Shown: positions 7,520 through 26,924 of the stretch, piece after piece
How the letters are laid out: every line of letters begins with the position of its first letter
Numbering within the stretch: the stretch's first letter is position 1
Assembly (NCBI GenBank): GCA_002861595.1
Contig: PJQG01000026.1
Span: 442-64,441 of the forward strand
Direction: 5' to 3'
Length of the DNA: 64,000 bases
Source: Actinomycetota bacterium
GTDB taxonomy: Bacteria > Actinomycetota > Acidimicrobiia > Acidimicrobiales > GCA-2861595
Made by a program: the position numbers and the translations under genes
The notes under the pieces: generated by a model
What the model saw: only the letters and a program-made list of their open reading frames with translations
Told to the model about the DNA's origin: nothing
Databases searched by the model: none

Positions 7520-7664
7520 GAACCGATCGTTCCCCTGCTCCCATCAGGGCTGCGACCAAGGGGGAGGAGTAGCCTCTCCCGGTGCTTGCGCCATCTGCGT
7601 CGACGGGCGCGAAGCTGACGAGAAGAGAGGCCTCTTCAGGCCCAGACCTCGCCGAGGGGTGCGG

Positions 7665-9362
7665 ATGCAGCGGGTGACAGCAGCGCAGGTTCCGGAGACG
7701 TCGCTCTCCGTGGAGCTGGACGAGCGGGTGTACGTGGAGGAGGAGAGCCGCCAGGGCCGAGCCGTTGGGCGCCGGGTGCCCAAGGCGGTGGTCGCCGCGG
7801 CCGTCGCGGCCGTCGCCGTAGGCGTGGTGTTCAGCTTCCTGAGTCGCTCCGAACTGTGGCTCGACGAGGCCCTCACTGTGAACATCGCCAAGCTCCCCCT
7901 CTCCGAGATGCCCGAAGCGTTGCGCCACGACGGGTCGCCGCCGCTCTACTACGTGCTGCTGCACGGATGGATGCAGCTCTTCGGCGACGGCAATGTGGCC
8001 GTGCGTGCCCTCTCCGGCGTGTTCGCCGTGGCCAGCCTTCCGCTCATGTGGCTGGCGGGGCGTCGACTCGGCGGAAGGCGGACCGCATGGGCGTCGCTCC
8101 TCCTGCTCAGCACGTCGCCGTTCGCGATCAAGTTCGCGTCGCAGACCCGGATGTACTCCCTCCTGGTGCTGCTGAGCCTGCTCGGCTACCTGGCGTTGAC
8201 CCGCTTCCTCGAGCATCCGGCGCCGGCCCCCTTCGTCGCCGTCGCCGTTGTCAGCGGGCTCCTCGCCTTGACCCACTACTGGGCCTTCTACCTGATCGGC
8301 GCGACCACCGCCCTCCTCGCCCTGCAGGCCGTTCTGGCCAAGGGGCCGGCCCGTCGCCCCCCGGTCCTGGCCGTGGTCGCGGTGGCAACGGGCGGCGTGC
8401 TGTTCCTGCCCTGGCTGCGCTCGTTCGTGTTCCAGCTGCGCTACACCGGCACACCGTGGCAGCGACCGGCCCGCTTCACTGCCATCTTCGACACCATCAG
8501 CGAGTTCTCAGGCGGGAACAACGAGAGCGGACGCACCTTGCTCTTGGTGCTCCTCGGGCTGGCCGGGCTCGGCCTGTTCGGCCGGGCGTGTCGCGGCGGC
8601 CAGGTGCAGCTCGGTCTCGTCCCCCGCCGCCGTGGGGCCACGATGGCCGCCGTGGCCTTCCTCACCCTCGCCGTCGGCCTGGCAGCCGGCTACATCCTCG
8701 GTGGCGCCTTCGCCTTTCGCTACGCCTCGGTGGTCCTGGCCCCGTTCCTCCTCCTCGTGGCCCTCGGCGTGCGGGTCCTCACCGACCGTCGCCTGCGGTG
8801 GGCCGTCCTCGCCGTGGTCGCAGGGCTCGGGCTCGTGGGCGGCTGGGCCGGCGTCACCGAACGGCGAACGCAGGCAGGCGTCATCGCCCAGGCGATCGAG
8901 GCCAAGGGCCGCGACGGCGACGTGGTGGCCTATTGCCCGGACCAGCTGGGCCCGGCCGTGAGCCGCCTGCTGTCCAACCGCTTCGACCAGTTGACGTTCC
9001 CGGCCGGTCTGCCGCCACAGCGCGTCGACTGGGTGCAGTACGCGGCGCGGCAGCGGTCCAGCAACCCGACGCAGTTCGCCACCGACCTCGACCGGCGTGC
9101 CGGGGATGCCCACGACGTCTGGCTGGTACGGGCCCCCGCCTACGCCACGTTCAAGAACTACTGCGAGATCGTCGACCGGGACCTCGGAGACATGCGCCCG
9201 GCCGCTCGTCTGGTGGAGAGCTGGAAGCCGAGCCGGTACGGCGAGGCGGCATACCTCATCCGCTACCCGAGCACCTGCCGTCGCCCGCTCGCCCTGAGAG
9301 AGCAACCGATCGACACCGGGCCGAACCCCTGCCCGCCGGGTATCGAGCGTTACCTGCGATAA
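7665..9362 (+). CDS. GT-C membrane glycosyltransferase, PMT_2/ArnT-like
   Basis: In-frame ATG 7665 (MQRVTAAQ...). First-loop motif LWLDEALTV, then SPPLYYVLLHGW, with about 10 or more hydrophobic helices. Confidence 0.75.
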   Translation: MQRVTAAQVPETSLSVELDERVYVEEESRQGRAVGRRVPKAVVAAAVAAVAVGVVFSFLSRSELWLDEALTVNIAKLPLSEMPEALRHDGSPPLYYVLLHGWMQLFGDGNVAVRALSGVFAVASLPLMWLAGRRLGGRRTAWASLLLLSTSPFAIKFASQTRMYSLLVLLSLLGYLALTRFLEHPAPAPFVAVAVVSGLLALTHYWAFYLIGATTALLALQAVLAKGPARRPPVLAVVAVATGGVLFLPWLRSFVFQLRYTGTPWQRPARFTAIFDTISEFSGGNNESGRTLLLVLLGLAGLGLFGRACRGGQVQLGLVPRRRGATMAAVAFLTLAVGLAAGYILGGAFAFRYASVVLAPFLLLVALGVRVLTDRRLRWAVLAVVAGLGLVGGWAGVTERRTQAGVIAQAIEAKGRDGDVVAYCPDQLGPAVSRLLSNRFDQLTFPAGLPPQRVDWVQYAARQRSSNPTQFATDLDRRAGDAHDVWLVRAPAYATFKNYCEIVDRDLGDMRPAARLVESWKPSRYGEAAYLIRYPSTCRRPLALREQPIDTGPNPCPPGIERYLR

Positions 9363-10612
9363 GGGGGCGTCTGCGGCGTCAAGGGCCGGGCCTCGACCTT
9401 GGCCTGAACCCGCATGTCGACGAGCCCGACGCTGCGCGCCGGGTTCATCACCTCGAAGTGGTGCTGCTGCTCACTCCAGTCGTACACGATGCCCTCGTCG
9501 TGGCTGTGGACGCCAAAGGTGAGGAGGTAGGTGCCGTCAAGCAGCGGGACGGTGTCGGTCTCGAACACCACCTGGGCCCGCCCTTCCGCTGCGTTCACCG
9601 GCACGCCGAGCAGATCGGTGTTGGAACCGAAGATGAGCCGCCCTTCCAGGTCGTACACGGCGATGCCGAAGACCACGTCGTCGATCCGCTCCACCGCTTC
9701 GTAGCCCATCGTGATGCGGAGGGACTCGCCGGGGAGGAGGTACGGCCGTTCGTCCGACCCGGGGTGCTCGATGCGGACTTCGTCGATGCGGATCTTCAGG
9801 TTGCGTTTGGCCTGCGGGGAATCGGCGGCTGCGCCCGACTCGCCGCCGGCGAGGAACCGATCGGCTTCTCCCCGCCGGTCTCGTTCGAGGAGGTGCTCAC
9901 GAAAGGCACGGATGGCCTCGCCCGGTGGCCCGACCGCGACCAGCCGACCCTCGTCCAGCACCGCGGCGCGGTCGCAGATCCTGCGGACGAGGTCGCTGGC
10001 GTGTGACACGAGCACGATGGTGCGACCCTCGCGCTGGAACTGGCGGATGCGGTCGAGGCAGCGCCGCTGGAACGACTCGTCGCCCACGGACAGCACCTCG
10101 TCCACCAGCAGCACGTCGGGCTCCATGTTCACGGCGACCGCGAACCCGAGACGGGCGTACATCCCGGAGGAGTAGTGCTTGACCTGGTTGTCGATGAACT
10201 GCTCGAGCTCAGCGAAGGCGACGATCTCGTCGAAGCGCTTGGCCACCTCGCTGCGAGGCAGCCCGAGGAGCGACGCGTTGAGGAAGACGTTCTCCCGGCC
10301 GGTGAGGTCCGGGTGGAAACCCGAGCCCAGCTCCAGGAGAGCGGCCAGCCGGCCCTCGACGTGGATCTCCCCGGCGGTGGGCTCGAGGATCCCGGCGATG
10401 CAGTTCAACAGCGTGCTCTTGCCACAGCCGTTGTGTCCGATGAGCCCGATCGTCTCGCCTTGGGCGATCTCGAGGTCGACATCCCGGAGGGCCCAGAAGT
10501 CCTCGAAGGGCACTCGGCCCAGGCGCACAACGCGCTCCTTCACCGACGTCAGCGTCTCCCGGTACAAGCGGAAGCGCTTCGAGACGCCGGTCACCTCGAC
10601 GGCGGTGCCCAT
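9350..10612 (-). CDS. wzt: Polysaccharide ABC exporter ATP-binding protein (Wzt/TagH type) with C-terminal beta-sandwich extension
   Basis: Walker A GHNGCGKST, signature YSSGM, Walker B LLVDEVL. About 170 aa of extra C-terminus (Wzt_C-like). Start ATG complement of 10610-10612. Confidence 0.9.
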   Translation of the reverse strand: MGTAVEVTGVSKRFRLYRETLTSVKERVVRLGRVPFEDFWALRDVDLEIAQGETIGLIGHNGCGKSTLLNCIAGILEPTAGEIHVEGRLAALLELGSGFHPDLTGRENVFLNASLLGLPRSEVAKRFDEIVAFAELEQFIDNQVKHYSSGMYARLGFAVAVNMEPDVLLVDEVLSVGDESFQRRCLDRIRQFQREGRTIVLVSHASDLVRRICDRAAVLDEGRLVAVGPPGEAIRAFREHLLERDRRGEADRFLAGGESGAAADSPQAKRNLKIRIDEVRIEHPGSDERPYLLPGESLRITMGYEAVERIDDVVFGIAVYDLEGRLIFGSNTDLLGVPVNAAEGRAQVVFETDTVPLLDGTYLLTFGVHSHDEGIVYDWSEQQHHFEVMNPARSVGLVDMRVQAKVEARPLTPQTPPYRR

Positions 10613-10623
10613 GCTGCTCGGCG

Positions 10624-11505
10624 TCAGAGCTCTTCCGCGAAGTTGCCCTCGAGGCGGCCGAACAGCCGGAAGGCGAGGGAGAGCACCACCAGCGAGAAGG
10701 CAGCGACGGCGCCGAGTTGGCCCAGGTACCAGGCAACACCCTTGCCGGCGGGGAGGATGGCCAGGCCCGACGGTTCGATCCGGTTGTAGATGGCTCGCTG
10801 GAAGGTGAGCACGACAGGGGTGACGGGATTGAGGCGGTACACCCAGGACGCTTCTCCCAGTTGGTCTGCCACCAAGCGGTACTGGTAGACGATCGGCGTG
10901 GCCCAGAACCACGCGAGCAGTACCAGCTCGATCAGGTGCTCCGTGTCGCGGGCGTAGACGTTCACCGCCGAGAGGGCCACGGCGAGGGCGGAGGTGAAGA
11001 GCAGCAGGCTCACGAGCGCGACGGGGACCAGCAGCAGGAACGTCGGCGACGGCGGGTAGCGGAACAGGGCGAGGGCGCCCAGGAGCACCACGCTCTGGAG
11101 GAGGAAGTGGACGAACGCGGCGCCCACCGATGCCAGGGGCAGGACCTCGCGCGGGAACGACACCTTCTTCACGATGGCGGCGTTGCCGACGACCGCTCGC
11201 GTGGCGCCGGCCAGCGCCGTGGAGAACAGGTTCCAGACGAGCAGCCCGGAGAGCAGATAGATCGCGAAGTTCGGTATGCGGTTGCGCAGGACGACCTGGA
11301 AGGCGAAATAGAACACGACCAGGTACAGCGCCGGGTTCAGCATCGACCAGAGGAAGCCGACAGCGCTGCCCTTGTACTTGACCTTCAGCTCCTTGCGCAC
11401 CAGGCCCACCAGGAGCTCGCGGTACCGCCACAGTCCCGACATCCGGTCGAGAACTGACTTCTCCGTGGACCGACGCGGCCTGGGTGCGGTCTCGGTGCGG
11501 TTCAT
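10624..11505 (-). CDS. wzm: ABC-2 type polysaccharide exporter permease (Wzm/TagG type)
   Basis: 293 aa. RELLVGLVRKELKVKYKGSAVGFLWSMLNP is the ABC-2 signature region. Six hydrophobic helices. Sits 11 nt upstream of wzt. Confidence 0.9.
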   Translation of the reverse strand: MNRTETAPRPRRSTEKSVLDRMSGLWRYRELLVGLVRKELKVKYKGSAVGFLWSMLNPALYLVVFYFAFQVVLRNRIPNFAIYLLSGLLVWNLFSTALAGATRAVVGNAAIVKKVSFPREVLPLASVGAAFVHFLLQSVVLLGALALFRYPPSPTFLLLVPVALVSLLLFTSALAVALSAVNVYARDTEHLIELVLLAWFWATPIVYQYRLVADQLGEASWVYRLNPVTPVVLTFQRAIYNRIEPSGLAILPAGKGVAWYLGQLGAVAAFSLVVLSLAFRLFGRLEGNFAEEL

Positions 11506-11589: not shown

Positions 11590-12933
11590 GTGCCGTCGGC
11601 GCCGGCCGCGGCACCGCCCCAGGCCCACGACGCCCGGCGAGCGACCGGACACGCGTTCGCTATGCTCCTGCACAGTGCCGGAGGTCGCGAGCCCCGCCGA
11701 GGAAGGGCCCCGACCGATACCGGACCTGACGCTCCGGTTCCCGTCACACCGGCGGTGAGGCCGGGCGTCGTTCGGGGCAGGGGCGGCGCGCCGAGGGGGC
11801 GCCTGCTCGCGGGCCCTCGGCCCGTGGCGGCGCGAGCGGCCACAGTGGGAGCGGCTCTGGCCCTCCCCGTGCTGTGGGAGCTGTTCCGCATGGGCTACTA
11901 CGCCATGCTCGTTCACAACACCACGCTGGCCAAGGAGGCCGCGCTGGCTCGTTGGGACCAGGGGTGGCGCTATTTCGTCGACACGGTGGGCACGTACTAC
12001 CTGGCCGTCCCTCTCCTGGTGGTCGCGCTGTTCGTCGCGCCGCGGGTCGCAACGGCGTGGCGGGTGGGTCAGCGCACGGTGGCCGCCCTCGTCGCCGCCC
12101 CGATCGCCGTCGGCCTGGTGCAGTGGGTCTACGTGATACGAGTCGGCGGCGACTTCATGCACGGACGTGTCCTGCTCCCGGGCCTCTTCGCCATCCTCCT
12201 GCCCGCCGCCGCTCTCCGCGTCTCCCGGCGCCAACTCGTCGGCTTCGCCGCGCTGGGCGTGTGGGCGCTCCTCGTCGGCACGGTCGTCCGCGTGCCCTAC
12301 CGAGGGGACATCGGGCCCGCGGGCATCGCCGACGAACGCGGCGTGTACGCGGGATGGGCCCGACGTGCCCACCCCGTGGCTGCCGACGACTACGCGCGCT
12401 GGGTGTGGCTCCGCCGTGGCCGGGATCTGCGCCGCCTGGCGGCCCAAGGAAAGCCCGTCCTGATACTCGGAGAGCGGGGCTTCGCCGATGCCAAGCAGCG
12501 GCTGCCCCTGCGATCGAGTCAGGATCGGCCCGTGGCTGTCTTCACGTCTGTGGGCATGCTCTCGTTCGCGGCGGGCGTCGACGTCCACGTCGTCGATCAG
12601 CTGGCCTTGGGCGACGTCATCGCCTCTCATCAGCGCGTCGACGTGCGGGGCCGGCCCGGCCACGAGAAGCTGCTGCACCTGGCCTGGGCGGCGGCCCGGT
12701 TCGCCGACCCCTCGGCGCCTCCGCCGCCACTCGGGCCGACGACCGCGGAGACGGCGGCAGCCCGCCGGGCGCTTCGCTGCGAGCCCCTCGCCGAGCTGTT
12801 CGCCGCTACCCAGGACCGCCTGTCGACGAGGCGCTTCATGAAGAACATGGGCGCTGCCCTCCGCCTCCATCGCCTTCGGTTCTCACCCTCTCCCGTCGTC
12901 GCCGTGCAGGAGCTGTGCGGGGGGTCGGCCTGA
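11590..12933 (+). CDS. AftB-like (GT-C arabinofuranosyltransferase family) protein lacking the N-terminal catalytic-loop region; truncated gene or pseudogene
   Basis: LFRMGYYAMLVHNTTLAKEAA, VGGDFMHGRVLLP and GHEKLL match my recollection of the middle and C-terminal parts of mycobacterial AftB. No room upstream (wzm is on the other strand) for the first ~200 aa. A likelier start is GTG 11824. Confidence 0.5.
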   Translation: MPSAPAAAPPQAHDARRATGHAFAMLLHSAGGREPRRGRAPTDTGPDAPVPVTPAVRPGVVRGRGGAPRGRLLAGPRPVAARAATVGAALALPVLWELFRMGYYAMLVHNTTLAKEAALARWDQGWRYFVDTVGTYYLAVPLLVVALFVAPRVATAWRVGQRTVAALVAAPIAVGLVQWVYVIRVGGDFMHGRVLLPGLFAILLPAAALRVSRRQLVGFAALGVWALLVGTVVRVPYRGDIGPAGIADERGVYAGWARRAHPVAADDYARWVWLRRGRDLRRLAAQGKPVLILGERGFADAKQRLPLRSSQDRPVAVFTSVGMLSFAAGVDVHVVDQLALGDVIASHQRVDVRGRPGHEKLLHLAWAAARFADPSAPPPPLGPTTAETAAARRALRCEPLAELFAATQDRLSTRRFMKNMGAALRLHRLRFSPSPVVAVQELCGGSA

Positions 12934-13027: not shown

Positions 13028-14704
13028 GTGGTCGACGCCGACATCCGATCGCTCGAGGCCGGGACCTCCGAGGCTGCCCCGGGCCGCACGGCCTCCAGAA
13101 GAGGGGATCGAGCGGGCCCAGAGCCATTTCGAGCGCGGACGCCCGGCCCGCCTGTGCGTGCCCTCCAGTGGCTGGCGACCTTCGTCGGCCGCCGTTGGGG
13201 CGGCCTCACCGTCATCACCGCGTTCGCGCTCTCTCGCGTCGCCCTCGCGCACCTGGCCGATCTGCGCTTCGACAACATCCCCCTCAACGTCTCGCTTCAG
13301 CTCCTCGATCGCGGCCATCTGCGTGAAGACCTGGTGGGCAGCGTCATCCACCTCCACTCCCAGCCCCCGCTGTTCAACCTCTTGATCGGCTTGGGCCTCC
13401 GTGCGCCGTTGCACCTCGAAACGCCGCTGTTCCATGCGCTGTACCTCGCCGTCGGGCTGGGTACCACGGTGTGCCTCTACGCCCTGCTGCGGCGCGTCGG
13501 GGTACCGACCGTGGTCGCCGTGGTCGTCACCCTGGTCTTCACCTCGAGCCCGTCGTTCTTCCTCTACGAGACGTGGCTGCACTACGACCAACTCGTCATG
13601 TTCTTGTTGTGCCTCTCGGCGTTGGCGCTGCTGCGCTACGAGGAGAGCGGACGGGCTCGGCACGCCGCTGTGTTCCTGACCCTCGTGGCCGCGGTCGTGC
13701 TGACGAGGAGCCTCTTCCACCTGGTCTGGTTCATGGCGTGGCCCGTCGTGCTCCTGGCACGTCGCGGCGTCGACCGTCGCCGGCTGCTGTCGGCTATGGC
13801 GCTGCCCGTCGTCGTGGTGGTCGGCCTTCAAGTGCACCGCCTCGTCACCTTCGGCACACCCTCGTTGAGCAGCCTGGTCGGGATCAGCCTGGCCAAGATC
13901 ACAACGTTCCAGCTCTCGGAGAGCGAGCGTCGGGACCTCGTGGGTCGCGGCGAGATCTCGCCGGTCTCGCTGGTCGAGCCCCTCAGCCCGCCGGCCAGCT
14001 ACGAAGGCCTCGTCCCCACCCCACGTCCCACGGGTGTCCCCGCCCTCGATGAGGACCTGAAGGGGTTCTACCGGAGCCCGCTCACCGACGACTTCTTCCG
14101 GATGAACCTGAACAGCATGGTGTTCCTCGAGGTCTCCAACCAGTACCGAAACGACGCACTCCACGTCATCCGAACACGACCGGGTGCGTACGTCAAAGGC
14201 GTGGCCAGGGCCGTGGAGATATTCTTCCGACCGACGAGTGACGTGTTCGCTTTCGCCCAGAACCGTGACCGAGTCGGATCGCTCGACCGCTTCTACAACC
14301 GTGCCGTGTTCGGGGTGGCCGCACCGGGAAAGGCCGCAGAAGGCATTCCCCCGGCCCACCTCGGTTACATCGAGGGGCCGGCTCGGACTGCGTGGTTCGT
14401 CGTAGCCGCCTACGTGGCCGCCCTCGTGGGCGGCGCATTCACTCTTCTCCGGCGAGCCAGGCGACGAGACGAAGGCGGCGGGTCGCTCCTGACGATCGGC
14501 TTCTTGTGGCTGACGACGCTGTACGTCTTCGTGTTCAGCAACACCCTCGAGGTGGGAGAGAACAACCGCTTCCGGCTCTACTCAGACCCATTGGTGATCG
14601 CACTACTCGCCGCGCTCGTCGTGCGGTGGCACCGAGGCCGGGCGGAGCGCATCGACGCCAGGCCGCTCGATCGTCGTCGCCAGAGTCAGAAGTGGGTGCG
14701 GTAG
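13028..14704 (+). CDS. Paralog A of an unrecognised polytopic membrane protein family (GT-C-like)
   Basis: 558-aa ORF with an AAGGAGG SD upstream of GTG 13028 (alternative GTG 13154). Motifs [52 protein letters not shown] are shared with 17589.. and 19229.. Confidence 0.75.
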   Translation: MVDADIRSLEAGTSEAAPGRTASRRGDRAGPEPFRARTPGPPVRALQWLATFVGRRWGGLTVITAFALSRVALAHLADLRFDNIPLNVSLQLLDRGHLREDLVGSVIHLHSQPPLFNLLIGLGLRAPLHLETPLFHALYLAVGLGTTVCLYALLRRVGVPTVVAVVVTLVFTSSPSFFLYETWLHYDQLVMFLLCLSALALLRYEESGRARHAAVFLTLVAAVVLTRSLFHLVWFMAWPVVLLARRGVDRRRLLSAMALPVVVVVGLQVHRLVTFGTPSLSSLVGISLAKITTFQLSESERRDLVGRGEISPVSLVEPLSPPASYEGLVPTPRPTGVPALDEDLKGFYRSPLTDDFFRMNLNSMVFLEVSNQYRNDALHVIRTRPGAYVKGVARAVEIFFRPTSDVFAFAQNRDRVGSLDRFYNRAVFGVAAPGKAAEGIPPAHLGYIEGPARTAWFVVAAYVAALVGGAFTLLRRARRRDEGGGSLLTIGFLWLTTLYVFVFSNTLEVGENNRFRLYSDPLVIALLAALVVRWHRGRAERIDARPLDRRRQSQKWVR

Positions 14705-15597
14705 CGCTCGAAGGCGGCGACCGTCTGGGCCGGCAGGAAGCGGAACAGAGCATCGGGGTCACCGGCGACGGCCTCCACGATGGCCAGGTTGTGCTCGTAG
14801 CCCAGGTACTCCTTCTTCATGTCGACGACGAGGTCGTGGGGGTTGCGCTCCTGGACGACCGACGGCTTGGCGAACGCCACCTTCGCCCCCATCCCCTGGA
14901 GGTAATAAGCCGCCCAGATGTCGTCCATGCGGCCCACGTCGGGAAAGAGGAAGTAGTGCTGGAGCCAGGACGCGCCGAGGAAGGTGTTCTGGGAGTTGAA
15001 TGGGCTCATGGCGTCTGCGGCCATTGGAAAGAGCGATTCGTCGAAGGAGCAGTCGGGAGCGAACTGCATCCGGCAGATGGCGTCGATGTCGGGGTCACCG
15101 TTCCAGAAGTCGGCCTGGACGTCGGGACGAAGCACCTCGCGGCGCCTCGTCGAGTAGTCCCGCTGCGGGAGGAGCTGCAGCGGGTACCCCCGATGCCACA
15201 GGTGGGGATAGTTGGTGGCGCCGACGGGGTCGAAGGCCGGCAGTGACGTGGCGAAGAACTCCACCTCCACGTCCCTGCCAACCAACAGGTCGCGGCCCCA
15301 CCCCTCGTAGGGGACGTTGTCGTCGTCGACGACGGCCACCACCTCCGCGCCCATCTCGCGCGCCACGAGGAAGCCGAAGTTGCGCCGCTGTATGCAGTTC
15401 CAACCGATGAGGTCGGAAAGCGTCTTGTCGATCTTCTCCTGCTCGGCGGGGCCGAGGTACGTACCGCGTTCGAGGTGGTAGTCCTCGGGCGTCTTGAGGT
15501 CGCCCAGCACGACGAGGTGCCAGTCCGGCAGGGCGTCGAAGAGGCGAACCGCTTTGGTGGGGGGATTGATGGTGGTCGTGACGATGACGTTGGTCAC
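14686..15597 (-). CDS. RGP/GT75-like protein (homolog of plant reversibly glycosylated polypeptide / UDP-L-arabinopyranose mutase)
   Basis: 303 aa from GTG (complement 15595-15597). VVDDDNVP, LWHRGYPLQLL, GRMDDIWAAYY, NPHDLVVDMKKEYLGY parallel the RGP motifs IDDDCFV, FVRGYPFSLR, GRYDDMWAGW, NPFVNLKKEYKGI (recalled from memory). Confidence 0.65.
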   Translation of the reverse strand: MTNVIVTTTINPPTKAVRLFDALPDWHLVVLGDLKTPEDYHLERGTYLGPAEQEKIDKTLSDLIGWNCIQRRNFGFLVAREMGAEVVAVVDDDNVPYEGWGRDLLVGRDVEVEFFATSLPAFDPVGATNYPHLWHRGYPLQLLPQRDYSTRRREVLRPDVQADFWNGDPDIDAICRMQFAPDCSFDESLFPMAADAMSPFNSQNTFLGASWLQHYFLFPDVGRMDDIWAAYYLQGMGAKVAFAKPSVVQERNPHDLVVDMKKEYLGYEHNLAIVEAVAGDPDALFRFLPAQTVAAFERYRTHF

Positions 15598-16418
15598 GTG
15601 ATGGGAGCCGGGCTGGATTGGCGGAGGATGGTGGCCGCTCCCTGGACCCGGTGGGCCAAGAGCGTGCGGATGTAGCGAGCCTGGGTCGAGAGGGAGTTCT
15701 GCGACTCGCCCTCCTGCCGCGGCGTCCAGAACGTTGGGATCTCGATGACCTCGACCCCGAGGCGCAGCGGCTTGAGGACGGTCTCGAGCAGGAACTCGTG
15801 GCGGAGCCCCTCCCAGCGGATGGCCTGGACGAGCGGGGTGGGAAAGAGCCGGTACCCGAAGGTCGCGTCGGTGAGATGGGTGTTGTAGAGCAGCGAGGTG
15901 AGGCGCTGGAACACCCAGTTCGCGGCGACACGGGCCCGGCCGTAGCCGGAGAACCCGCCACCCGGTGCCCAGCGCGACGCGGTGATGACGGCAGCGGGGT
16001 GCTTCTTGGCGAGCTCGATGAACCGCGGCACGAGCTTCGGGTCCGTCTCCAGGTCGGTGGACATCATGATCACGTGGCTGGCGGTTGCGAGGTCGAACGC
16101 CTCCCGCATGGCGCCCCCGAGGAAAGGCAGGTGCTGGTTGTGGATGTGGACTCGGTCGCCGAACCGCGATTCGAGTGCCTCGCACCGCGCCAGCGTCTCG
16201 GGTGTGGTGCGGTCGCACACCACGACCAGGACCTGGGCGATGTCCTCGTCGCTCGTCTCCTTGAGGATGCGAGCGGTCTCGTCGACAGAGTCGGTCTCCG
16301 TAACGGCCGGGAGGAGGACAGTCACACCAGAGAACTCACGAGCGACCGGAGGCGACGTTGCGGGCACGACGGGTTCCTCTCTTTCTCGAAGGGACCGGCT
16401 GGCCCCAAGGGGGGCCAT
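15594..16418 (-). CDS. GT2, DPM1/Ppm1-like polyprenyl-phosphate sugar synthase
   Basis: MSTDLETDP, ASRWAPGGG...ANWVF, TDATFGYRLF, EIPTFWTPRQEGESQ fit the dolichol-P-mannose-synthase pattern. Its stop overlaps the downstream GTG (GTGA). Start uncertain (ATG 16418 or GTG 16367). Confidence 0.75.
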   Translation of the reverse strand: MAPLGASRSLREREEPVVPATSPPVAREFSGVTVLLPAVTETDSVDETARILKETSDEDIAQVLVVVCDRTTPETLARCEALESRFGDRVHIHNQHLPFLGGAMREAFDLATASHVIMMSTDLETDPKLVPRFIELAKKHPAAVITASRWAPGGGFSGYGRARVAANWVFQRLTSLLYNTHLTDATFGYRLFPTPLVQAIRWEGLRHEFLLETVLKPLRLGVEVIEIPTFWTPRQEGESQNSLSTQARYIRTLLAHRVQGAATILRQSSPAPIT

Positions 16419-16584
16419 GCCCGGCGACGGGTACCCTAGCGCCGGCTGTTCTCGCCGCCCACCACACTCCAGCACCACGAACCGCACGGCTGTGCTGTCC
16501 CCGCTCGCCGCGGGGCACGTGCTATCTTCACCGGCGCTGGAGAGGCGGGGTCGTCACGCAAGGGCGTGCACAGAAAGGAAATCA

Positions 16585-17571
16585 ATGAGCAACGACGCCG
16601 TGGTCGTGGGTGGGGCCGGTGGTTTCATCGGCGGTCACCTCGTCTCCAGCCTGCTGGAGGAAGGACGGGCCGTGAGGGCCGTCGATTACAAGCCGCTGTC
16701 GGCATGGTGCCAGCTCCACCCGGGTGCCGACAACCGCTCCCTCGACCTCCGCACGGCCGAAGCCTGTCGCAAGTCCGTCGACGGCGCCGCCGAGGTCTAC
16801 AACCTGGCCGCCGACATGGGCGGCATGGGTTTCATCGAGAGCAACAAGGCCTTGTGCATGCTCTCTGTCCTCATCAACACGCATCTGTTGATGGCGGCCC
16901 ACGAGAGCGGGGTCGAGCGCTACTTCTTCGCTTCCTCGGCCTGTGTCTACGCGTCGGACAAGCAGGTGTCGCCGGCGGTCACCGCCCTGAAGGAGGCCGA
17001 CGCCTACCCGGCGATGCCCGAGGACGGCTACGGCTGGGAGAAGCTGTTCGGCGAGCGGATGTGCCGGCACTTCCGAGAGGACTTCGGGCTGCAGACCCGC
17101 ACGGCGCGCTACCACAACGTCTACGGCGAGTACGGGACCTACGACGGCGGTCGCGAGAAGGCGCCGGCCGCCATCTGCCGGAAGGTGATCGAGGCCAAGC
17201 TGTCGGGCCGCCACGAGATCGAGGTGTGGGGCGACGGCGAGCAGACCCGAAGCTTCATGTACATCACTGACTGCGTGCGAGGCACAAAAGCCATCCTGGC
17301 CAGCGACATCCTCGATCCCATCAACCTCGGCAGCGCCCAGCTGGTCACCATCAACCAACTGATCGACATCGTCGAGGCGGTCGCGGGGATCAAGGTCCGT
17401 CGCAACTACAAGCTGGACGCGCCGCTGGGTGTGCGCGGCCGCAACAGCGACAACACCCTCATCCGAAGCCACCTGGGTTGGGAACCGTCGGTGACCCTCG
17501 AACAGGGAATCGAGAAGACCTACCGCTGGATCTACGACCAGATGACCAGGGTGGACGGCGCCAACAGCTGA
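16585..17571 (+). CDS. gme: GDP-mannose 3,5-epimerase homolog
   Basis: 328 aa with SD AAAGGAA. GGAGGFIGGHL, NLAADMGGMGFI, FFASSACVY, GREKAPAAICRK, WGDGEQTRSF, GVRGRNSDN closely follow plant GME as I remember it. Confidence 0.85.
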   Translation: MSNDAVVVGGAGGFIGGHLVSSLLEEGRAVRAVDYKPLSAWCQLHPGADNRSLDLRTAEACRKSVDGAAEVYNLAADMGGMGFIESNKALCMLSVLINTHLLMAAHESGVERYFFASSACVYASDKQVSPAVTALKEADAYPAMPEDGYGWEKLFGERMCRHFREDFGLQTRTARYHNVYGEYGTYDGGREKAPAAICRKVIEAKLSGRHEIEVWGDGEQTRSFMYITDCVRGTKAILASDILDPINLGSAQLVTINQLIDIVEAVAGIKVRRNYKLDAPLGVRGRNSDNTLIRSHLGWEPSVTLEQGIEKTYRWIYDQMTRVDGANS

Positions 17572-17588
17572 CTTCACGGCGCCGTCCG

Positions 17589-19232
17589 ATGCCGTTCCTC
17601 ATCAGATCGTCAACGGCCCTGCGCCGGCGGTGGGGTGCCCTCGCCGTCGTGACCGGGTTCGTGCTCTCCCGGATCGCCCTGGCCCACTTCGCTCACCTGC
17701 GTTTCGACAACAGCACCATCAACGCGGGCCTGCAGTTCCTCGATCGCGGCCACCTGCGTGAAGACCTGGTGGGCAGCCTCCTCCACCTCCACTCGCAGCC
17801 ACCGTTGTTCAACCTGTTCCTGGGCCTGGTCGTCCATGCGCCGCTGCACCTCGAGGCGCCGATCCTCCACGCCGTGTACCTGGCGGTCGGGCTAGGTCTC
17901 GCCCTCAGCCTCTACGCCATCCTTCGCCACGTCGGGGTGCCGACGGTGGTCGCCGTCGCGGTCGCCCTCGTCTTCACCTTCAGCCCGTCGGTGTTCCTCT
18001 ACGAGAGCTGGTTGCACTACGACTACCCCGTCACACTGGGCCTGTGCCTGGCCGTGTTGGCACTCCTGCGCTACGAAGAACGCCAACGGCCGAGGGACGG
18101 CGCGCTGTTCCTGGTGATGCTCGGCGCCGTCGTGCTCACCAGGAGCCTCTTCAGCGTCGCGTTGGTCCTCCTGTGGGCCATCGTGCTGGTCGCCCGCCGA
18201 GGCGGCGACCGGCGCAGGTTGGTCGGCGCGCTGGCGCTCCCCGTCATCGTGGTGGTCGCCGTGCAGGTGCACCGCCTCGTGGTCTTCGGGACGCCGACGC
18301 TGAGCAGCAGCCTCGGGGTCAGCCTGGCCAAGATGACGACGTTCCAGCTCTCCGAGGGCGAGCGCCAGGAGCTGGCCGCTCGGGGGGAGATCTCCCGCGT
18401 CTCGCTGGTCGAGCCCCTGAGCCCCGCGGACCGCTACCACGGCCTCATCCCCACCCCTCGTCGTACTGGTGTACGGGCCCTCGACGAGGAGGTGAAGGGC
18501 ATCTACCCGAGCCCGCCCACGGACAACGAGTACTTCCGCACCAACACGAACGCCACGATCTTCCAGGAGGTGTCCCGCCGCTACACCGCCGACGCCCTCC
18601 ACGTCATCCGAACCCGCCCCGGTGCCTACTTGCAGGGAGTGGCGACGGCCACCGAGATCTTCTTCCGCCCTACCGGCGACTTCTTCACCCTGGTCGGGAA
18701 CCGGGATCGGGTGGCGGCCCTCGACCGGTTCTACAACCGCGCAGTGTTCGGAGTCGTGGCGGGGGGCAAGGCACCGTCCGTCATCCCCGAGGCGCGGGTC
18801 CAGTACCGCCAGGGCCCGGCGCGCACGGCGTGGGTGGTCGTGGCCGCCTACGCGCTCGCCTTCGTCTGGGGCGCAGCCACGCTCCTGCGCCGAGCACGGC
18901 GACGGGAGCGGGATGGGGGTCCCGTTCTCACCATCGCCTTCCTCTGGCTGACCACCGTCTACGTCTTCGTCGTGAGCAACGCCGTCGAGGTGGGGGAGAA
19001 CAATCGCTTCCGGCTCTACTCCGACCCCCTCGTGATCGCGCTGCTCGCCACGCTGGTCGTGCAATGGCGGCGGAGCCGCTCCCCGCTGGCCCGTGCGCAA
19101 GCAGCTCGCCGAGCCTCGGCGAGCGCGTCGGTCACGACGGTCAGGACGGGCGGGGCGAGAGAATGCGTTCCCGACGCGGTGACGGTCGCGCCGCCCACTC
19201 CTGTCGGTGAGGGGTCTCGAGGAGGGCAGTGA
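17589..19232 (+). CDS. Paralog B of the unrecognised membrane protein family
   Basis: 547 aa from ATG 17589. Colinear with paralog A, with long identical runs ([77 protein letters not shown]). Confidence 0.8.
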   Translation: MPFLIRSSTALRRRWGALAVVTGFVLSRIALAHFAHLRFDNSTINAGLQFLDRGHLREDLVGSLLHLHSQPPLFNLFLGLVVHAPLHLEAPILHAVYLAVGLGLALSLYAILRHVGVPTVVAVAVALVFTFSPSVFLYESWLHYDYPVTLGLCLAVLALLRYEERQRPRDGALFLVMLGAVVLTRSLFSVALVLLWAIVLVARRGGDRRRLVGALALPVIVVVAVQVHRLVVFGTPTLSSSLGVSLAKMTTFQLSEGERQELAARGEISRVSLVEPLSPADRYHGLIPTPRRTGVRALDEEVKGIYPSPPTDNEYFRTNTNATIFQEVSRRYTADALHVIRTRPGAYLQGVATATEIFFRPTGDFFTLVGNRDRVAALDRFYNRAVFGVVAGGKAPSVIPEARVQYRQGPARTAWVVVAAYALAFVWGAATLLRRARRRERDGGPVLTIAFLWLTTVYVFVVSNAVEVGENNRFRLYSDPLVIALLATLVVQWRRSRSPLARAQAARRASASASVTTVRTGGARECVPDAVTVAPPTPVGEGSRGGQ

Positions 19233-20803
19233 CAGCCACGACGGCGGCGAGGCCCAGGGGCGAGGTCCACGGGGAGCCTGCCGACTGGTCGAGGCGCACG
19301 TCGGGGTGGCACCTCGGCGCGCTCGTCGTCGTCGTCGTCGCCTTCGTGGTCTCACGCATCGCCATCGCCCACAGCGGGGTGGTGTTCGACGACCGCACGC
19401 TGAACGACAGCCACCAGTTGCTGGAGCTGAGCGAGCTGCGGGACCACCCGCTGCGCAGCCTCGCCAACCTGCACTCCCAACCGCCGCTGTTCAACCTCTT
19501 CGTCGCCCTGGGCCTGCGGGCGCCGGAGTCCTGGCACAGGACGCTGTTCCACCTGAGCCAGCTCGCCATAGGTCTGGGGCTGATGCTGTGCCTCTACGCC
19601 GTGCTGAAGCGGCTCGGGGTGCGCAGCGCCATGGCCGTCGTACTCGTCGTGGTCTTCTCGCTGAGCCCGTCGGTGTTCCTCTACGAGAACTGGTTCCACT
19701 ACGACTACCCGATCGCGCTCATGCTGTGCCTCGCCGTGCTGGCGCTGCAACGGTACGAGACCGGCCATCGCCTGGGCCATGCGGCGATCTTCTTCGTCTT
19801 GCTCGGCACCATCGTGCTGACCAGGAGCATGTTCCACCTGTTCTGGATGGCCGCCTGGGTGGCCGTGCTCGTGTTCCACCGTCGCGGTGCCGACTGGAGG
19901 CGGGTGGCCGCCGTGGCGGCCGTACCGCTCGTCGCCGCGGTGGGCCTCCACCTCCAGCGCCTCGTCACCTTCGGCACCTTCTCCTCCACCTCCTCGCTCG
20001 GGATGAGCCTGGCCAAGCTGACCACCTTCCAGCTGACTGGACGTGAACGCCAGGAGCTGGTCGCGGAGCGGAAGCTCTCGAGGGTGGCCTTGATCGACCC
20101 GTTCTTCCCCGTTCGGGTCTACGCGCCAGTGGTCCCACCCCGGCCACCGACGGGGGTGCCGGTGCTCGACGACGCGGACAAGACGCTCGCCGACGGCAGC
20201 ACCCGCAACAACTACAACCACATCAACTACCTCGACATCGACGACCGCTACATGGACGACGTCAAGCGCACCATGAGGATGAGGCCTACGGCGTACGCGC
20301 GCGGTGTGGCGACCGCCTACGACATCTTCTTCCGGCCGCCCAGCGATTTCTTCGCCATCGGGCAGAACCGCGAACAGGTGGCCGGACTGGACCGCCTCTA
20401 CAACCACGCGTTCTATGGCCTGATCGGCGGCGCCGAGGACGTGGACGGTCATCCCGACAGCGCTCGCCAGTTCCGCCAGTCCCCGGGGCGCACGGCCTGG
20501 TTGAGCGTGGCGGCTTATGCCGTTGCCGTCGTCGGAGGCGCCGTCCACCTCTGGCGCCGACGCCGCCGTTCAGGCGACGAGCCTCAGTCCTGGCTGGTCC
20601 TGGCGTTCCTCTGGTCCACGGTGACCTACGTCATGGTCCTCGGCACCATGTTCGAGGTGGCCGAGAACAACCGCTTCCGGCTCTACTCCGACCCCCTCGT
20701 CCTCGCCCTCGTGGCCGCCCTGGTGGTCGCCTGGCGGCGTCAGCGGCCCACGACCAGGGTCCAGCCTGCCGGGTGGTCCCGGGCCCGAGGGCGGGACCGT
20801 TGA
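19229..20803 (+). CDS. Paralog C of the unrecognised membrane protein family (more divergent)
   Basis: 524 aa. GTGA overlap with the paralog B stop. Keeps [54 protein letters not shown]. Confidence 0.8.
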
Positions 20804-20844
20804 CAACTGGCCAGCTAGCGTTCGCTGACCGCGGAGGAGAACCA

Positions 20845-26808: not shown

Positions 26809-26924
26809 GGAATCCCTTCATGGTCTCGCAGCGTCGCAGGCGGCACGATAGTTCCAGCGGCCCTCGATGAACCAGCATCCTCCGTCGGACCAGGGCGTGG
26901 TCCGAGGCATCGGGCCGCCGGCCC

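What the first reader, a model, noticed from the sequence alone, without database searches (positions are those of the whole stretch)
14686..16418. Bacterial homolog of plant RGP/UDP-arabinopyranose mutase (GT75) translationally coupled to a polyprenyl-P-sugar synthase
SEEN: the 303-aa ORF carries VVDDDNVP, LWHRGYPLQLL, GRMDDIWAAYY and NPHDLVVDMKKEYLGY in the same order as the RGP motifs IDDDCFV, FVRGYPFSLR, GRYDDMWAGW and NPFVNLKKEYKGI (recalled from memory, not aligned). Its GTG start overlaps the stop of the DPM1-like GT2. ESTABLISHED: plant RGPs interconvert UDP-L-arabinopyranose and UDP-L-arabinofuranose, and the family is mostly eukaryotic. INFERENCE: this is either a nucleotide-L-sugar mutase feeding the GT2 or a self-glycosylating primer protein. 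With GME next door, GDP-L-galactose or GDP-L-fucose ring contraction is a testable idea.
Basis: partly seen in the sequence, partly recalled or inferred. Interest (0 to 1): 0.7.

Follow-up and report, generated by a model that had tools for sequence, protein, structure and literature searches.

The report
Bacterial GT75-type sugar ring-contraction mutase
This gene encodes a distant relative of the plant RGP and bacterial MtdL enzymes that turn six-membered nucleotide-sugars into five-membered ones, and it belongs to a conserved, uncharacterised gene cassette found in many bacterial phyla that probably makes a lipid-linked furanose sugar for decorating the cell envelope.

Summary
The 303-aa ORF (14686-15597, minus strand) carries the cited motifs, and its GTG start overlaps the TGA stop of the upstream GT2 gene (GTGA).

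Pfam's RGP model does not detect it. Family profiles match MtdL, the solved GT75 GDP-L-galactose/GDP-L-fucose pyranose-furanose mutase, at E 1e-23 to 9e-54. An AlphaFold model matches MtdL (E 1e-17) and then rice UAM2.

The catalytic Arg, the DDD motif, the general-base Asp and the phosphate-binding residues are all invariant. Two MtdL residues differ: the Mn ligand His287 is Gln, and Asp87 is Ile.

The neighbouring SDR is a true GDP-mannose 3,5-epimerase. The GT2 groups with polyprenyl-phosphate glycosyltransferases (DPMS, ArnC, GtrB). GT-C-type membrane proteins surround the pair.

The best reading is GDP-Man to GDP-L-Galp to GDP-L-Galf to polyprenyl-P-L-Galf, followed by transfer outside the membrane.

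A GT2-GT75-SDR cassette recurs in at least 15 phyla. In most genomes the SDR is a different, uncharacterised one, so the family-wide sugar is unresolved.

Bacterial GT75 mutases are already known (MtdL, Hyg20). This subfamily and its lipid-carrier context appear undescribed.

The parts
14686..15597 (-). GT75-like (MtdL-like) predicted NDP-sugar pyranose-furanose mutase, 303 aa
   Evidence: Translation and motifs. Profile vs MtdL E 1e-23 and 9.4e-54. Foldseek vs MtdL E 1e-17 and OsUAM2 E 1.7e-8. 5394 homologues, all unnamed.
15594..15597 (-). GTGA stop/start overlap between the GT2 and GT75-like genes (translational coupling)
   Evidence: Sequence. The same 4-nt ATGA/GTGA overlap occurs in 31 of 63 related loci, and the rest are separated by no more than 87 nt.
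15594..16418 (-). GT2, predicted polyprenyl-phosphate glycosyltransferase without a membrane anchor (ATG at 16418; an alternative GTG lies at 16487)
   Evidence: PF00535 E 1.9e-11. NCBIfam weak hits to AglJ and dolichyl-P-hexose transferase. Family profile vs PDB: DPMS E 2.3e-15, ArnC E 4e-9, GtrB E 1e-6 as the top seven hits. No hydrophobic segment.
16585..17571 (+). GDP-mannose 3,5-epimerase (GME), divergently transcribed from the GT2-GT75 pair
   Evidence: 301 bits, E 9e-89 to Arabidopsis GME 2c59. Catalytic Ser143, Cys145, Tyr174, Lys178 and Lys217 are conserved in the alignment.
13028..14704 (+). GT-C-like polytopic membrane protein, paralogue 1; its 3' end overlaps the 3' end of the GT75-like gene by 19 nt (convergent)
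   Evidence: PMT_2 E 5.7e-4. 68% identical to paralogue 2.
17589..19232 (+). GT-C-like polytopic membrane protein, paralogue 2
   Evidence: PMT_2 27.0 bits vs cut-off 26.1. Named 'glycosyltransferase family 39 protein' by NCBI. AF2 pLDDT 90.9. The top 28 Foldseek PDB hits are all GT-C enzymes, at weak E values of 5e-3 to 0.5.
19229..20803 (+). GT-C-like polytopic membrane protein, paralogue 3
   Evidence: PMT_2 E 1.2e-4. 48-50% identical to paralogues 1 and 2.
20773..21852 (+). GDP-mannose 4,6-dehydratase (Gmd)
   Evidence: TIGR01472 486.5 bits vs cut-off 415. PF16363 E 2.8e-137.
21849..22796 (+). GDP-L-fucose-synthase-like SDR
   Evidence: NF047922 E 3.5e-82, 276 bits, below the 500-bit equivalog cut-off.
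22917..24104 (+). SAM-dependent methyltransferase at the end of the same plus-strand gene string
   Evidence: Methyltransf_23 E 2.2e-15.
11590..12933 (+). Short AftB-like membrane protein, a homologue of the mycobacterial enzyme that uses decaprenyl-P-arabinofuranose
   Evidence: NF041481 E 2.7e-40. PDB 9dlf AftB E 2.9e-31, aligned to AftB residues 191-643 only.
9350..11505 (-). Wzm/Wzt-type ABC exporter for a glycan polymer (permease 10624-11505, ATPase 9350-10600)
   Evidence: NCBIfam TagH, teichoic-acid-export and galactan-export ATPase and permease models, E 1e-18 to 2e-56, all below cut-off.

Best explanation
The ORF encodes a soluble, divalent-cation-dependent NDP-sugar pyranose-to-furanose mutase of the GT75 fold. 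It is a distant relative (24-25% identity) of the actinomycete enzyme MtdL. By analogy with the mechanism proposed for MtdL, Arg136 attacks C1 of the sugar with Asp226 acting as general base. The DDD motif (91-93), a metal ion, Arg223, Arg251 and His254 hold the diphosphate. The ring then re-closes through O4.

In this window the most likely substrate is GDP-beta-L-galactopyranose, made from GDP-mannose by the adjacent GDP-mannose 3,5-epimerase. GDP-L-fucose, which Gmd and the Fcl-like SDR of the same gene string could supply, is a second candidate.

The furanose form is thermodynamically disfavoured. The translationally coupled GT2 probably captures it at once and transfers it to a polyprenyl phosphate. 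The GT-C-type membrane proteins of the cluster would then use this lipid-linked furanose outside the membrane to decorate an envelope glycan.

Shown: homology, fold, conserved catalytic residues, the identity of GME, the class of the GT2, and conservation of the cassette. Inferred: mutase activity, the identity of the nucleotide and the sugar, the hand-over to the GT2, and the lipid-linked product.
For: Homology to MtdL:
- Family profile E 1e-23; broader profile E 9.4e-54, nearly full length.
- Foldseek E 1e-17, TM 0.73; the next hit is rice UAM2 at E 1.7e-8.

MtdL functional residues (PMC9937993) map onto residues that are invariant even among relatives only 32-41% identical:
- D109/D110/D111 to D91/D92/D93.
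- R159 to R136.
- D195 to D170.
- S228/Q229 to S202/Q203.
- R257 to R223.
- D260 to D226.
- R289 to R251.
- H292 to H254.

The nucleotide pocket resembles the GDP-specific MtdL and not UDP-specific RGPs:
- T13 to T8 (Pro in RGPs).
- S86 to C68 (Asp in RGPs, and S86D abolishes GDP binding in MtdL).

The adjacent SDR is a true GME. GME has been recruited next to this mutase independently in other lineages:
- L049, Gammaproteobacteria: the GME stop overlaps the mutase start.
- L023, Alphaproteobacteria.
- L070, Chthoniobacterales.

The GT2 lies directly upstream in 65 of 81 loci, with a 4-nt overlap in 31 of 63. Its profile hits only polyprenyl-phosphate GTs at the top of the PDB list.

Large polytopic membrane proteins lie within 4.5 kb in 57 of 81 loci. 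The window has at least five PMT_2-like GT-C genes and an AftB-like gene.

The pyranose-furanose equilibrium of GT75 mutases is about 9:1 against furanose, and removal of product is thought to drive it (PMC6861824). This gives a rationale for tight coupling to a consuming transferase.
Against: - No activity was measured.
- The Mn2+-coordinating His287 of MtdL is an invariant Gln (Q249) here. Loss of this His, together with loss of Arg257, is what the MtdL paper associates with the inactive AtRGP5.
- Asp87, whose mutation to Asn or Ser kills MtdL, is Ile69 here.
- Pfam RGP does not detect the protein.
- The catalytic-Arg loop (123-137) is modelled with pLDDT below 50.
- In 46 of 81 loci the partner SDR is not GME. 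It is an uncharacterised 'SDR-X' that lacks the acid/base Cys and Lys of GME and is nearest to nucleotide-sugar 4-epimerases.
- No residue of the mutase distinguishes GME-type from SDR-X-type loci. So either SDR-X supplies the same sugar by unknown chemistry, or the mutase is promiscuous, or the sugar is not L-galactose.
- The GT2 has no membrane segment, and its lipid acceptor is inferred only from family resemblance.
Confidence: 0.6

Rival explanations
1. The protein is a GT75-type pyranose-furanose mutase, but its real substrate is another NDP-sugar. That sugar would be a galacto-configured one made by 4-epimerisation in most genomes. The GME neighbour in this clade would then be a secondary recruitment or would serve a different branch of the glycan.
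For: SDR-X, not GME, is the partner in 46 of 81 loci and is itself 63-93% identical across phyla. It keeps only the Ser/Tyr/Lys triad. Its best PDB matches are UDP-GlcA and UDP-Glc 4-epimerases, at 93.5, 86 and 82 bits. The sugar-pocket residue Asp87 of MtdL is Ile here. L070 has both SDR-X next to the mutase and GME 6 kb away, which argues that the two SDRs are not simply equivalent.
Against: SDR-X and GME occupy the same position and orientation in closely related actinobacterial loci: L011 and L014 versus L006, L008 and L012, whose mutases are 75-78% identical to the window's. This looks like in-situ functional replacement. No mutase position separates the two locus types. The pocket residues T8 and C68 are of the GDP type. 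[quoted passage not shown]
Confidence: 0.2
2. The protein is not a mutase. It would be an arginine self-glycosylating protein, or a non-catalytic partner that scaffolds or regulates the GT2, comparable to the catalytically inactive class-2 plant RGPs.
For: The metal-ligand His is replaced by Gln, and Asp87 by Ile. The plant family includes inactive members, and OsUAM2, the second-best structural match, is one of them. Tight translational coupling to the GT2 would also suit a stoichiometric complex.
Against: Every other catalytic and substrate-binding residue is invariant over 32-82% identical relatives, including the Arg nucleophile, the general base, both phosphate-binding arginines and Ser/Gln. 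The inactive AtRGP5 also lacks the Arg257 equivalent, which is kept here. Gln is itself invariant across the whole bacterial clade, which points to a functional ligand and not to decay. Identity of 60-80% across phyla indicates strong selection on an enzyme.
Confidence: 0.1
3. The protein is an ordinary GT-A glycosyltransferase that passes a sugar to a separate acceptor, and its likeness to RGP motifs is superficial.
For: The Pfam RGP model gives no hit for this protein. After MtdL and UAM2, the structural hits are generic GT-A enzymes such as TarP and GalNAc-T2.
Against: The E values to MtdL (1e-23 and 9.4e-54) and the full-length alignment with the GT75-specific motifs in register rule out coincidence. 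Generic GT-A hits are 12 orders of magnitude weaker.
Confidence: 0.05

Closest known systems
MtdL (Marinactinospora thermotolerans, A201A pathway; PDB 7xpr, 7xps, 7xpt, 7xpu, 7yua, 8hl8) and Hyg20 (hygromycin A pathway): GT75 GDP-L-galactose/GDP-L-fucose pyranose-furanose mutases
   Same: Same fold and same motif set: DDD, the catalytic Arg, a DxD containing Asp195, Ser/Gln, the Arg257/Asp260 pair, and the loop-A Arg and His. The nucleotide pocket is GDP-like. The protein is soluble with no flavin-binding motif. It is paired with a GDP-mannose 3,5-epimerase; from my own recollection of the A201A cluster, a GME homologue supplies MtdL.
   Different: Only 24-25% identical. It is 303 aa against 376 aa, with shorter N- and C-terminal regions. 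The metal ligand His287 is Gln, and Asp87 is Ile. It sits in an envelope-glycan cluster with a polyprenyl-phosphate GT2 and GT-C proteins, not in an antibiotic cluster. It is spread over at least 15 phyla at 60-80% identity.
Plant reversibly glycosylated polypeptides / UDP-L-arabinopyranose mutases (RGP/UAM, Pfam PF03214, CAZy GT75)
   Same: Homologous fold (OsUAM2, E 1.7e-8). Shares the DDD/DDN motif, the autoglycosylated Arg and the third DxD. The predicted chemistry is the same.
   Different: About 17% identity. It does not reach the Pfam RGP threshold. The base-selectivity residues are of the GDP type (Thr and Cys) and not the UDP type (Pro and Asp). The plant enzymes feed Golgi transporters, not a lipid-carrier GT.
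Mycobacterial decaprenyl-phospho-D-arabinofuranose (DPA) system with Emb/Aft GT-C arabinofuranosyltransferases
   Same: The same logic applies: a lipid-phosphate-linked furanose is made in the cytoplasm and used by GT-C enzymes outside the membrane. The window also contains an AftB homologue. From textbook carbohydrate stereochemistry, L-Galf has the same ring configuration (C2-C4) as D-Araf. An inverting GT2 acting on GDP-beta-L-Galf would therefore give polyprenyl-P-alpha-L-Galf, which is a hexose homologue of DPA.
   Different: DPA is made from PRPP through DprE1/DprE2 epimerisation on the lipid, with no nucleotide-sugar mutase. No DprE1/DprE2 homologues were seen here. The AftB-like ORF lacks the N-terminal third of AftB.
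Three-component periplasmic glycosylation systems (GtrA/GtrB/GtrC; ArnC/ArnT; Rhizobium RgtE with RgtA-D and the UDP-GlcA 4-epimerase LpsL), the last recalled from my own knowledge
   Same: A DPM1/GtrB/ArnC-class GT2 sits beside GT-C membrane proteins, with an SDR that prepares the nucleotide sugar.
   Different: Those systems carry pyranoses and have no mutase. Their GT2 enzymes have C-terminal membrane helices, which are absent here. No GtrA-like flippase was identified.
FAD-dependent UDP-galactopyranose mutase (Glf/UGM) and relatives
   Same: The net reaction, NDP-pyranose to NDP-furanose, is the same. This is the usual bacterial route to furanose sugars.
   Different: The fold and cofactor are unrelated. 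The FAD-type oxidoreductase in the window (25270-26817) belongs to the PRK07208 family and is not Glf.

Membership tests
CAZy GT75 (RGP/UAM/MtdL) | Significant sequence similarity to a characterised member | tested here: met
   Family profile vs MtdL E 1e-23. Broader profile E 9.4e-54 covering MtdL residues 8-322.
CAZy GT75 (RGP/UAM/MtdL) | GT75 variant of the GT-A fold | tested here: met
   AF2 model pLDDT 83.6, pTM 0.87. Foldseek: MtdL E 1e-17 with TM 0.73, OsUAM2 E 1.7e-8, generic GT-A enzymes at E 1e-5 or weaker.
Pfam RGP (PF03214) | Score above the Pfam gathering threshold | tested here: not met
   No RGP hit at E<=1 for the window protein, and STELLO E 0.18. 4 of 24 relatives hit RGP (best E 1.3e-4) and 9 of 24 hit STELLO (best E 0.025).
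GT75 NDP-pyranose mutase (active class) | Central DDD/DDN motif (MtdL D109-D111; essential in OsUAM1) | tested here: met
   D91-D92-D93-N94 are invariant and aligned to MtdL DDDN.
GT75 NDP-pyranose mutase (active class) | Catalytic/autoglycosylated arginine (MtdL R159, OsUAM1 R158) | tested here: met
   R136 in WHRGYP is invariant and aligned to MtdL FPRGFP.
GT75 NDP-pyranose mutase (active class) | General base Asp260, Asp195 in the third DxD, Arg257, Ser228/Gln229, and loop-A Arg289/His292 | tested here: met
   D226, D170 (in D170-I-D172), R223, S202/Q203 and R251/H254 are invariant or nearly invariant. Their roles are taken from PMC9937993.
GT75 NDP-pyranose mutase (active class) | Histidine ligand of Mn2+ (MtdL His287; conserved in active AtRGP1-3, lost in inactive AtRGP5) | tested here: not met
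   The aligned residue is Gln249. It is invariant across relatives 32-82% identical, and it sits at the end of the equivalent beta-strand.
GT75 NDP-pyranose mutase (active class) | Sugar-pocket Asp87 of MtdL (D87N and D87S are inactive; Ser in active plant RGPs) | tested here: not met
   The aligned residue is Ile69, nearly invariant in WNCIQRRN.
GT75 NDP-pyranose mutase (active class) | Second essential arginine, seven residues after the catalytic Arg (OsUAM1 R165) | tested here: inconclusive
   An invariant Arg (R146) lies ten residues, not seven, after R136. The profile alignment does not pair it with MtdL R166.
GDP-specific GT75 (MtdL/Hyg20 type) | Base-selectivity residues Thr13, Asn42 and Ser86 (Pro, Asp and Asp in UDP-specific RGPs) | tested here: inconclusive
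   T8 matches Thr13, and C68 is small like Ser86, but K35 replaces Asn42. This is compatible with guanine but does not prove it.
GT75 NDP-pyranose mutase (active class) | Divalent-cation-dependent interconversion of NDP-pyranose and NDP-furanose | not testable with these tools
   This needs a recombinant enzyme assay.
GDP-mannose 3,5-epimerase (neighbour, 16585-17571) | Full-length similarity plus catalytic Ser143, Cys145, Tyr174, Lys178 and Lys217 | tested here: met
   301 bits, E 9e-89 to 2c59. All five residues are aligned and identical.
Polyprenyl-phosphate glycosyltransferases (DPM1/DPMS/GtrB/ArnC class of GT2; neighbour 15594-16418) | Closest relatives among characterised GT2 enzymes are lipid-phosphate GTs | tested here: met
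   Profile A3 vs PDB: DPMS E 2.3e-15, three ArnC entries at E 4e-9 to 2.4e-7, and GtrB (sll0501) at E 1.2e-6 take the top seven places. NCBIfam gives weak hits to AglJ, dolichyl-P-hexose transferase, PgfS and ArnC.
Polyprenyl-phosphate glycosyltransferases (DPM1/DPMS/GtrB/ArnC class of GT2) | C-terminal transmembrane anchor | tested here: not met
   The median maximal 19-residue hydropathy is 1.27, below the 1.6 used as the TM threshold. From my own knowledge, anchor-less members exist (human DPM1, mycobacterial Ppm1 catalytic domain), so this weakens membership but does not exclude it.
GT-C glycosyltransferases (neighbours) | Polytopic GT-C fold or PMT_2-type N-terminal module | tested here: met
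   PMT_2 at 27.0 vs 26.1 bits for 17478-19232, and E 1e-11 for 7293-9362. AF2 pLDDT 90.9. The top 28 Foldseek hits are all GT-C, though at weak E values of 5e-3 to 0.5 and TM 0.26-0.40.

The most novel reading that the evidence does not exclude
A phylum-spanning three-gene cassette (polyprenyl-phosphate GT2, GT75-type mutase, SDR) is a previously unrecognised, flavin-independent route to a lipid-linked furanose donor. In this actinobacterium the donor would be polyprenyl-phospho-L-galactofuranose, a hexose homologue of mycobacterial decaprenyl-phospho-arabinofuranose. GT-C enzymes, including an AftB relative, would use it to build or decorate envelope glycans. The usual partner, SDR-X, would then be a new kind of nucleotide-sugar epimerase that can stand in for GDP-mannose 3,5-epimerase.
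Probability: 0.3. Interest if true: 0.75.

Novelty: new variant of a known kind. Interest (0 to 1): 0.55.

Why it matters
Furanose sugars are absent from mammals, and the enzymes that make them are drug and diagnostic targets; the mycobacterial arabinan and galactan pathways are the classic case. In bacteria the known route is the flavin-dependent UGM family. The metal-dependent GT75 route has so far been shown only for two antibiotic pathways.

The present family is far more widespread. There are 5394 clusters at 90% identity, found in Actinomycetota, Proteobacteria, Verrucomicrobiota, Planctomycetota, Bacteroidota, Acidobacteriota, Melainabacteria and candidate phyla. It is unusually conserved and always unannotated.

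If the model is right, three things would follow. It would reveal a new lipid-linked furanose donor. It would give a biological role to bacterial GDP-mannose 3,5-epimerases, whose function has been an open question (PMC6678494). It would also assign functions to thousands of 'hypothetical' proteins.

Tried and rejected
1. Pfam and NCBIfam scans of the target gave nothing significant. The homology became visible only with family profiles against PDB sequences and with the fold search.
2. I looked for mutase residues that separate loci with GME from loci with SDR-X, hoping to read out a substrate switch. None were found; only three conservative, lineage-linked positions differ.
3. I searched the window for an SDR-X copy and for a second GT75 gene. 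Neither is present.
4. I asked whether the AftB-like gene travels with the cassette. It was not found in any of the 80 loci.
5. Literature searches for this cassette, L-galactofuranose, GT75 in bacteria, Hyg20 and fucofuranose returned only the MtdL work. The Campylobacter furanose pathways use FAD mutases and are unrelated.
6. The GME papers note a glycosyltransferase next to the Methylacidiphilum GME but no mutase. I could not fetch that locus.
8. Fusion proteins were examined as Rosetta stones. The fused domain has no Pfam match, so it only suggests linkage to some other transferase.
9. A profile of SDR-X against the PDB ranks 4-epimerases first, but by a small margin over Fcl and GME (93 vs 66-69 bits). 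This does not settle its function.

Full report
**Observation**

The window is high-GC (66-76%). NCBI lists a protein identical to the target as a hypothetical protein of an Actinobacteria MAG (P0001).

Its GTG start shares three bases with the TGA stop of the upstream GT2 gene, forming GTGA. Homologues start MTNVIVTTTIN, which supports this start codon.

**Is it an RGP/GT75 relative?**

- Pfam finds no RGP hit at E<=1, and STELLO scores only E 0.18.
- NCBIfam finds nothing.
- Among 24 family members, four give sub-threshold RGP hits (best E 1.3e-4) and nine give STELLO hits.

The family itself is large. There are 5394 clusters at 90% identity, 63-82% identical to the query, and all are unnamed.
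- A profile of the family hits the PDB chains of MtdL at E 1e-23.
- A profile that adds relatives 32-41% identical hits MtdL at E 9.4e-54 over residues 8-322.
- An AlphaFold model (pLDDT 83.6, pTM 0.87) finds MtdL first (E 1e-17, TM 0.73, 25% identity) and rice UAM2 second (E 1.7e-8). Generic GT-A enzymes follow at E 1e-5 or weaker.

MtdL is a CAZy GT75 member. It interconverts GDP-L-Galp with GDP-L-Galf and GDP-L-Fucp with GDP-L-Fucf, using Mn2+ instead of flavin (PMC9937993).

**Active site**

MtdL residues whose roles were established by structure and mutagenesis map as follows.

| MtdL | Window protein | Role in MtdL |
|---|---|---|
| D109/D110/D111 | D91/D92/D93 | DDD motif, metal and sugar binding |
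| R159 | R136 | proposed nucleophile; autoglycosylation site in plants |
| D195 | D170 | essential Asp that contacts Arg159 |
| S228/Q229 | S202/Q203 | sugar binding; Gln also binds phosphate |
| R257 | R223 | beta-phosphate binding |
| D260 | D226 | proposed general base |
| R289/H292 | R251/H254 | loop A, diphosphate binding |

All of these are invariant or nearly invariant, even among relatives 32-41% identical.

Two residues depart from MtdL.
- The Mn2+ ligand His287 is Gln249, which is invariant throughout the bacterial clade.
- Asp87, where D87N and D87S inactivate MtdL and active plant RGPs have Ser, is Ile69.

In the base pocket, Thr13 maps to T8 and Ser86 maps to C68. UDP-specific RGPs have Pro and Asp at these positions, and S86D abolishes GDP binding in MtdL. 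Asn42 is replaced by K35. The pocket therefore looks GDP-compatible, but this is an inference.

The loop that carries R136 is poorly modelled, with pLDDT below 50.

**Neighbours in the window**

- The SDR at 16585-17571, divergent from the GT2-mutase pair, is a genuine GDP-mannose 3,5-epimerase. It scores 301 bits against Arabidopsis GME, with Ser143, Cys145, Tyr174, Lys178 and Lys217 all conserved.
- GME heads a plus-strand string: GME, two GT-C-like genes, Gmd (486 bits, above the equivalog cut-off), an Fcl-like SDR (276 bits, below cut-off) and a methyltransferase.
- A profile of the GT2 family puts only polyprenyl-phosphate glycosyltransferases at the top of the PDB list: DPMS E 2.3e-15, ArnC E 4e-9, GtrB E 1e-6. 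The GT2 has no hydrophobic segment.
- Three paralogous membrane proteins, 48-68% identical to one another, give borderline PMT_2 hits. NCBI names one of them GT39. Its AlphaFold model has pLDDT 90.9, and all of its 28 best PDB matches are GT-C enzymes, though at weak E values.
- Two further PMT_2-like genes, a Wzm/Wzt exporter and a short AftB homologue (E 2.9e-31 to PDB 9dlf, aligned to AftB residues 191-643) complete the cluster.

**Comparative context**

A scan of one genome per species found 291 relatives. The 80 best come from Actinomycetota, Alpha-, Gamma- and Deltaproteobacteria, Verrucomicrobiota, Lentisphaerota, Kiritimatiellota, Planctomycetota, Bacteroidota, Acidobacteriota, Melainabacteria, Margulisbacteria, Omnitrophota and others. 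Almost all are MAGs. Two are isolates, Occallatibacter savannae and Dethiosulfatarculus sandiegensis.

De novo clustering of neighbouring ORFs gave the following.
- The GT2 lies directly upstream on the same strand in 65 of 81 loci.
- The 4-nt ATGA/GTGA overlap is present in 31 of 63 loci.
- An extended SDR lies directly downstream in 59 of 81 loci.
- Large polytopic membrane ORFs lie within 4.5 kb in 57 of 81 loci. Some are PMT_2 proteins, some carry PA14 domains, and many have no Pfam match.

The GT2-GT75-SDR cassette was also seen in metagenome contigs.

**The complication**

In 46 loci the SDR is not GME. It is another family, here called SDR-X, which is itself 63-93% identical across phyla.
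- SDR-X keeps the Ser/Tyr/Lys triad but has Ala where GME has Cys145.
- It lacks the loop that carries Lys217.
- Its best PDB matches are UDP-GlcA and UDP-Glc 4-epimerases (93, 86 and 82 bits), only slightly ahead of Fcl and GME (66-69 bits).

GME-type partners occur in nine actinobacterial loci and also in three other lineages:
- L049: the GME stop overlaps the mutase start, with a GT2, a PMT_2 gene and a Wzy_C gene nearby.
- L023.
- L070: both SDR-X and GME are present.

In closely related Acidimicrobiales loci, SDR-X (L011, L014) and GME (L006, L008, L012) occupy the same position and orientation. No mutase residue discriminates between the two locus types, and the window has no SDR-X.

Three readings remain open.
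- SDR-X supplies the same sugar by unknown chemistry.
- The mutase is promiscuous, as MtdL, Hyg20 and plant UAMs are.
- The family's usual sugar is not L-galactose.

**Mechanistic model**

For this window I favour the following pathway.
1. GDP-Man is converted to GDP-beta-L-Galp by GME.
2. GDP-beta-L-Galp is converted to GDP-beta-L-Galf by the GT75-like mutase. GDP-L-Fuc from Gmd and the Fcl-like SDR is a possible second substrate.
3. The sugar is transferred to polyprenyl phosphate by the GT2.
4. The lipid-linked sugar is used by GT-C enzymes outside the membrane.

The GT75 equilibrium lies about 9:1 towards pyranose, and removal of product is thought to pull it (PMC6861824). This gives a reason for the conserved translational coupling to a consuming transferase.

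From textbook stereochemistry, L-Gal shares the configuration of C2-C4 with D-Ara. An inverting GT2 would therefore make polyprenyl-P-alpha-L-Galf, which is a hexose homologue of mycobacterial DPA. That fits the presence of an AftB relative, although this ORF lacks the N-terminal third of AftB and does not travel with the cassette.

None of these activities was measured.

**Comparison with what is known, and novelty**

GT75 mutases in bacteria are established for MtdL and Hyg20 only; both are actinomycete antibiotic enzymes. I found no paper describing this subfamily, the cassette, or a lipid-linked L-galactofuranose. The papers on bacterial GME leave its role open and mention only a neighbouring glycosyltransferase.

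I class the finding as a new variant of a known kind. The fold and the probable chemistry are the same as in MtdL. Three things differ: the metal ligand, a residue of the sugar pocket, and the biological context (envelope glycan with a lipid carrier, in many phyla). I score interest at 0.55. The enzymology is predictable from MtdL. The breadth and conservation of the cassette, its complete lack of annotation and the unresolved SDR-X partner make it worth bench work.

Noticed in passing
L004:10937-11917, L011:8937-9938(-), and about 44 other loci; absent from the window: SDR-X is an uncharacterised extended SDR of about 325 aa, 63-93% identical across phyla, lying directly downstream of the GT75-like gene. 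It keeps the Ser/Tyr/Lys triad but lacks the Cys145 and Lys217 loop of GME. Its nearest solved relatives are UDP-GlcA and UDP-Glc 4-epimerases, at only about 90 bits. In the window's clade GME has replaced it at the same position.
   Followed up: partly
window 11590-12933 (+): A short homologue of mycobacterial AftB, the arabinofuranosyltransferase that uses decaprenyl-P-arabinofuranose (PDB 9dlf E 2.9e-31; NF041481 E 2.7e-40). It aligns only to AftB residues 191-643, so the N-terminal third is missing. It was not found in the 80 related loci.
   Followed up: partly
window 13028-14704, 17589-19232, 19229-20803 (also 7293-9362 and 26871-29060): Three paralogous GT-C-like genes, 48-68% identical, flank the GT2-mutase pair, and two more PMT_2-like genes lie further out. 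That is an unusual density of lipid-donor-dependent transferases in one cluster.
   Followed up: partly
window 25270-26817 (-); L010:759-2249, L011:5429-7000: A PRK07208-type FAD-dependent oxidoreductase of unknown function (816 bits to NF005548). In two related actinobacterial loci it sits immediately next to the GT2. It shows only faint N-terminal similarity to UDP-galactopyranose mutase.
   Followed up: no
window 21849-22796 (+): The Fcl-like SDR scores well below the GDP-L-fucose synthase equivalog cut-off (276 vs 500 bits). It appears to have Gly where E. coli GMER has the catalytic His179; that numbering is from memory. It may not be a standard fucose synthase.
   Followed up: no
proteins P0160 (615 aa), P0214 (498 aa), P0237 (1162 aa): Natural fusions exist between the GT75-like domain and a domain of about 300 aa ('GRNDDYGG ... 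EWNP') that has no Pfam match. One 1162-aa relative gives a strong STELLO/DUF288 hit (E 1.7e-23), which links this bacterial superfamily to both RGP and STELLO.
   Followed up: partly
L024:11072-13102, L027:9928-12000: In Verrucomicrobia and Kiritimatiellaeota loci, the polytopic membrane proteins downstream of the cassette carry a C-terminal PA14 carbohydrate-binding domain and have no recognisable GT-C Pfam module.
   Followed up: no
L023:6991-8004 and 8 loci in all (e.g. L037, L055, L075, L083): A conserved membrane protein of about 338 aa with 7-8 predicted TM segments and no Pfam match lies just upstream of the cassette in Alphaproteobacteria and Planctomycetota. In L023 it overlaps the mutase start in place of the GT2.
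   Followed up: no
window 14686-14704: The 3' ends of the GT75-like gene (minus strand) and the GT-C-like gene 13028-14704 (plus strand) overlap by 19 nt, in convergent orientation.
   Followed up: no
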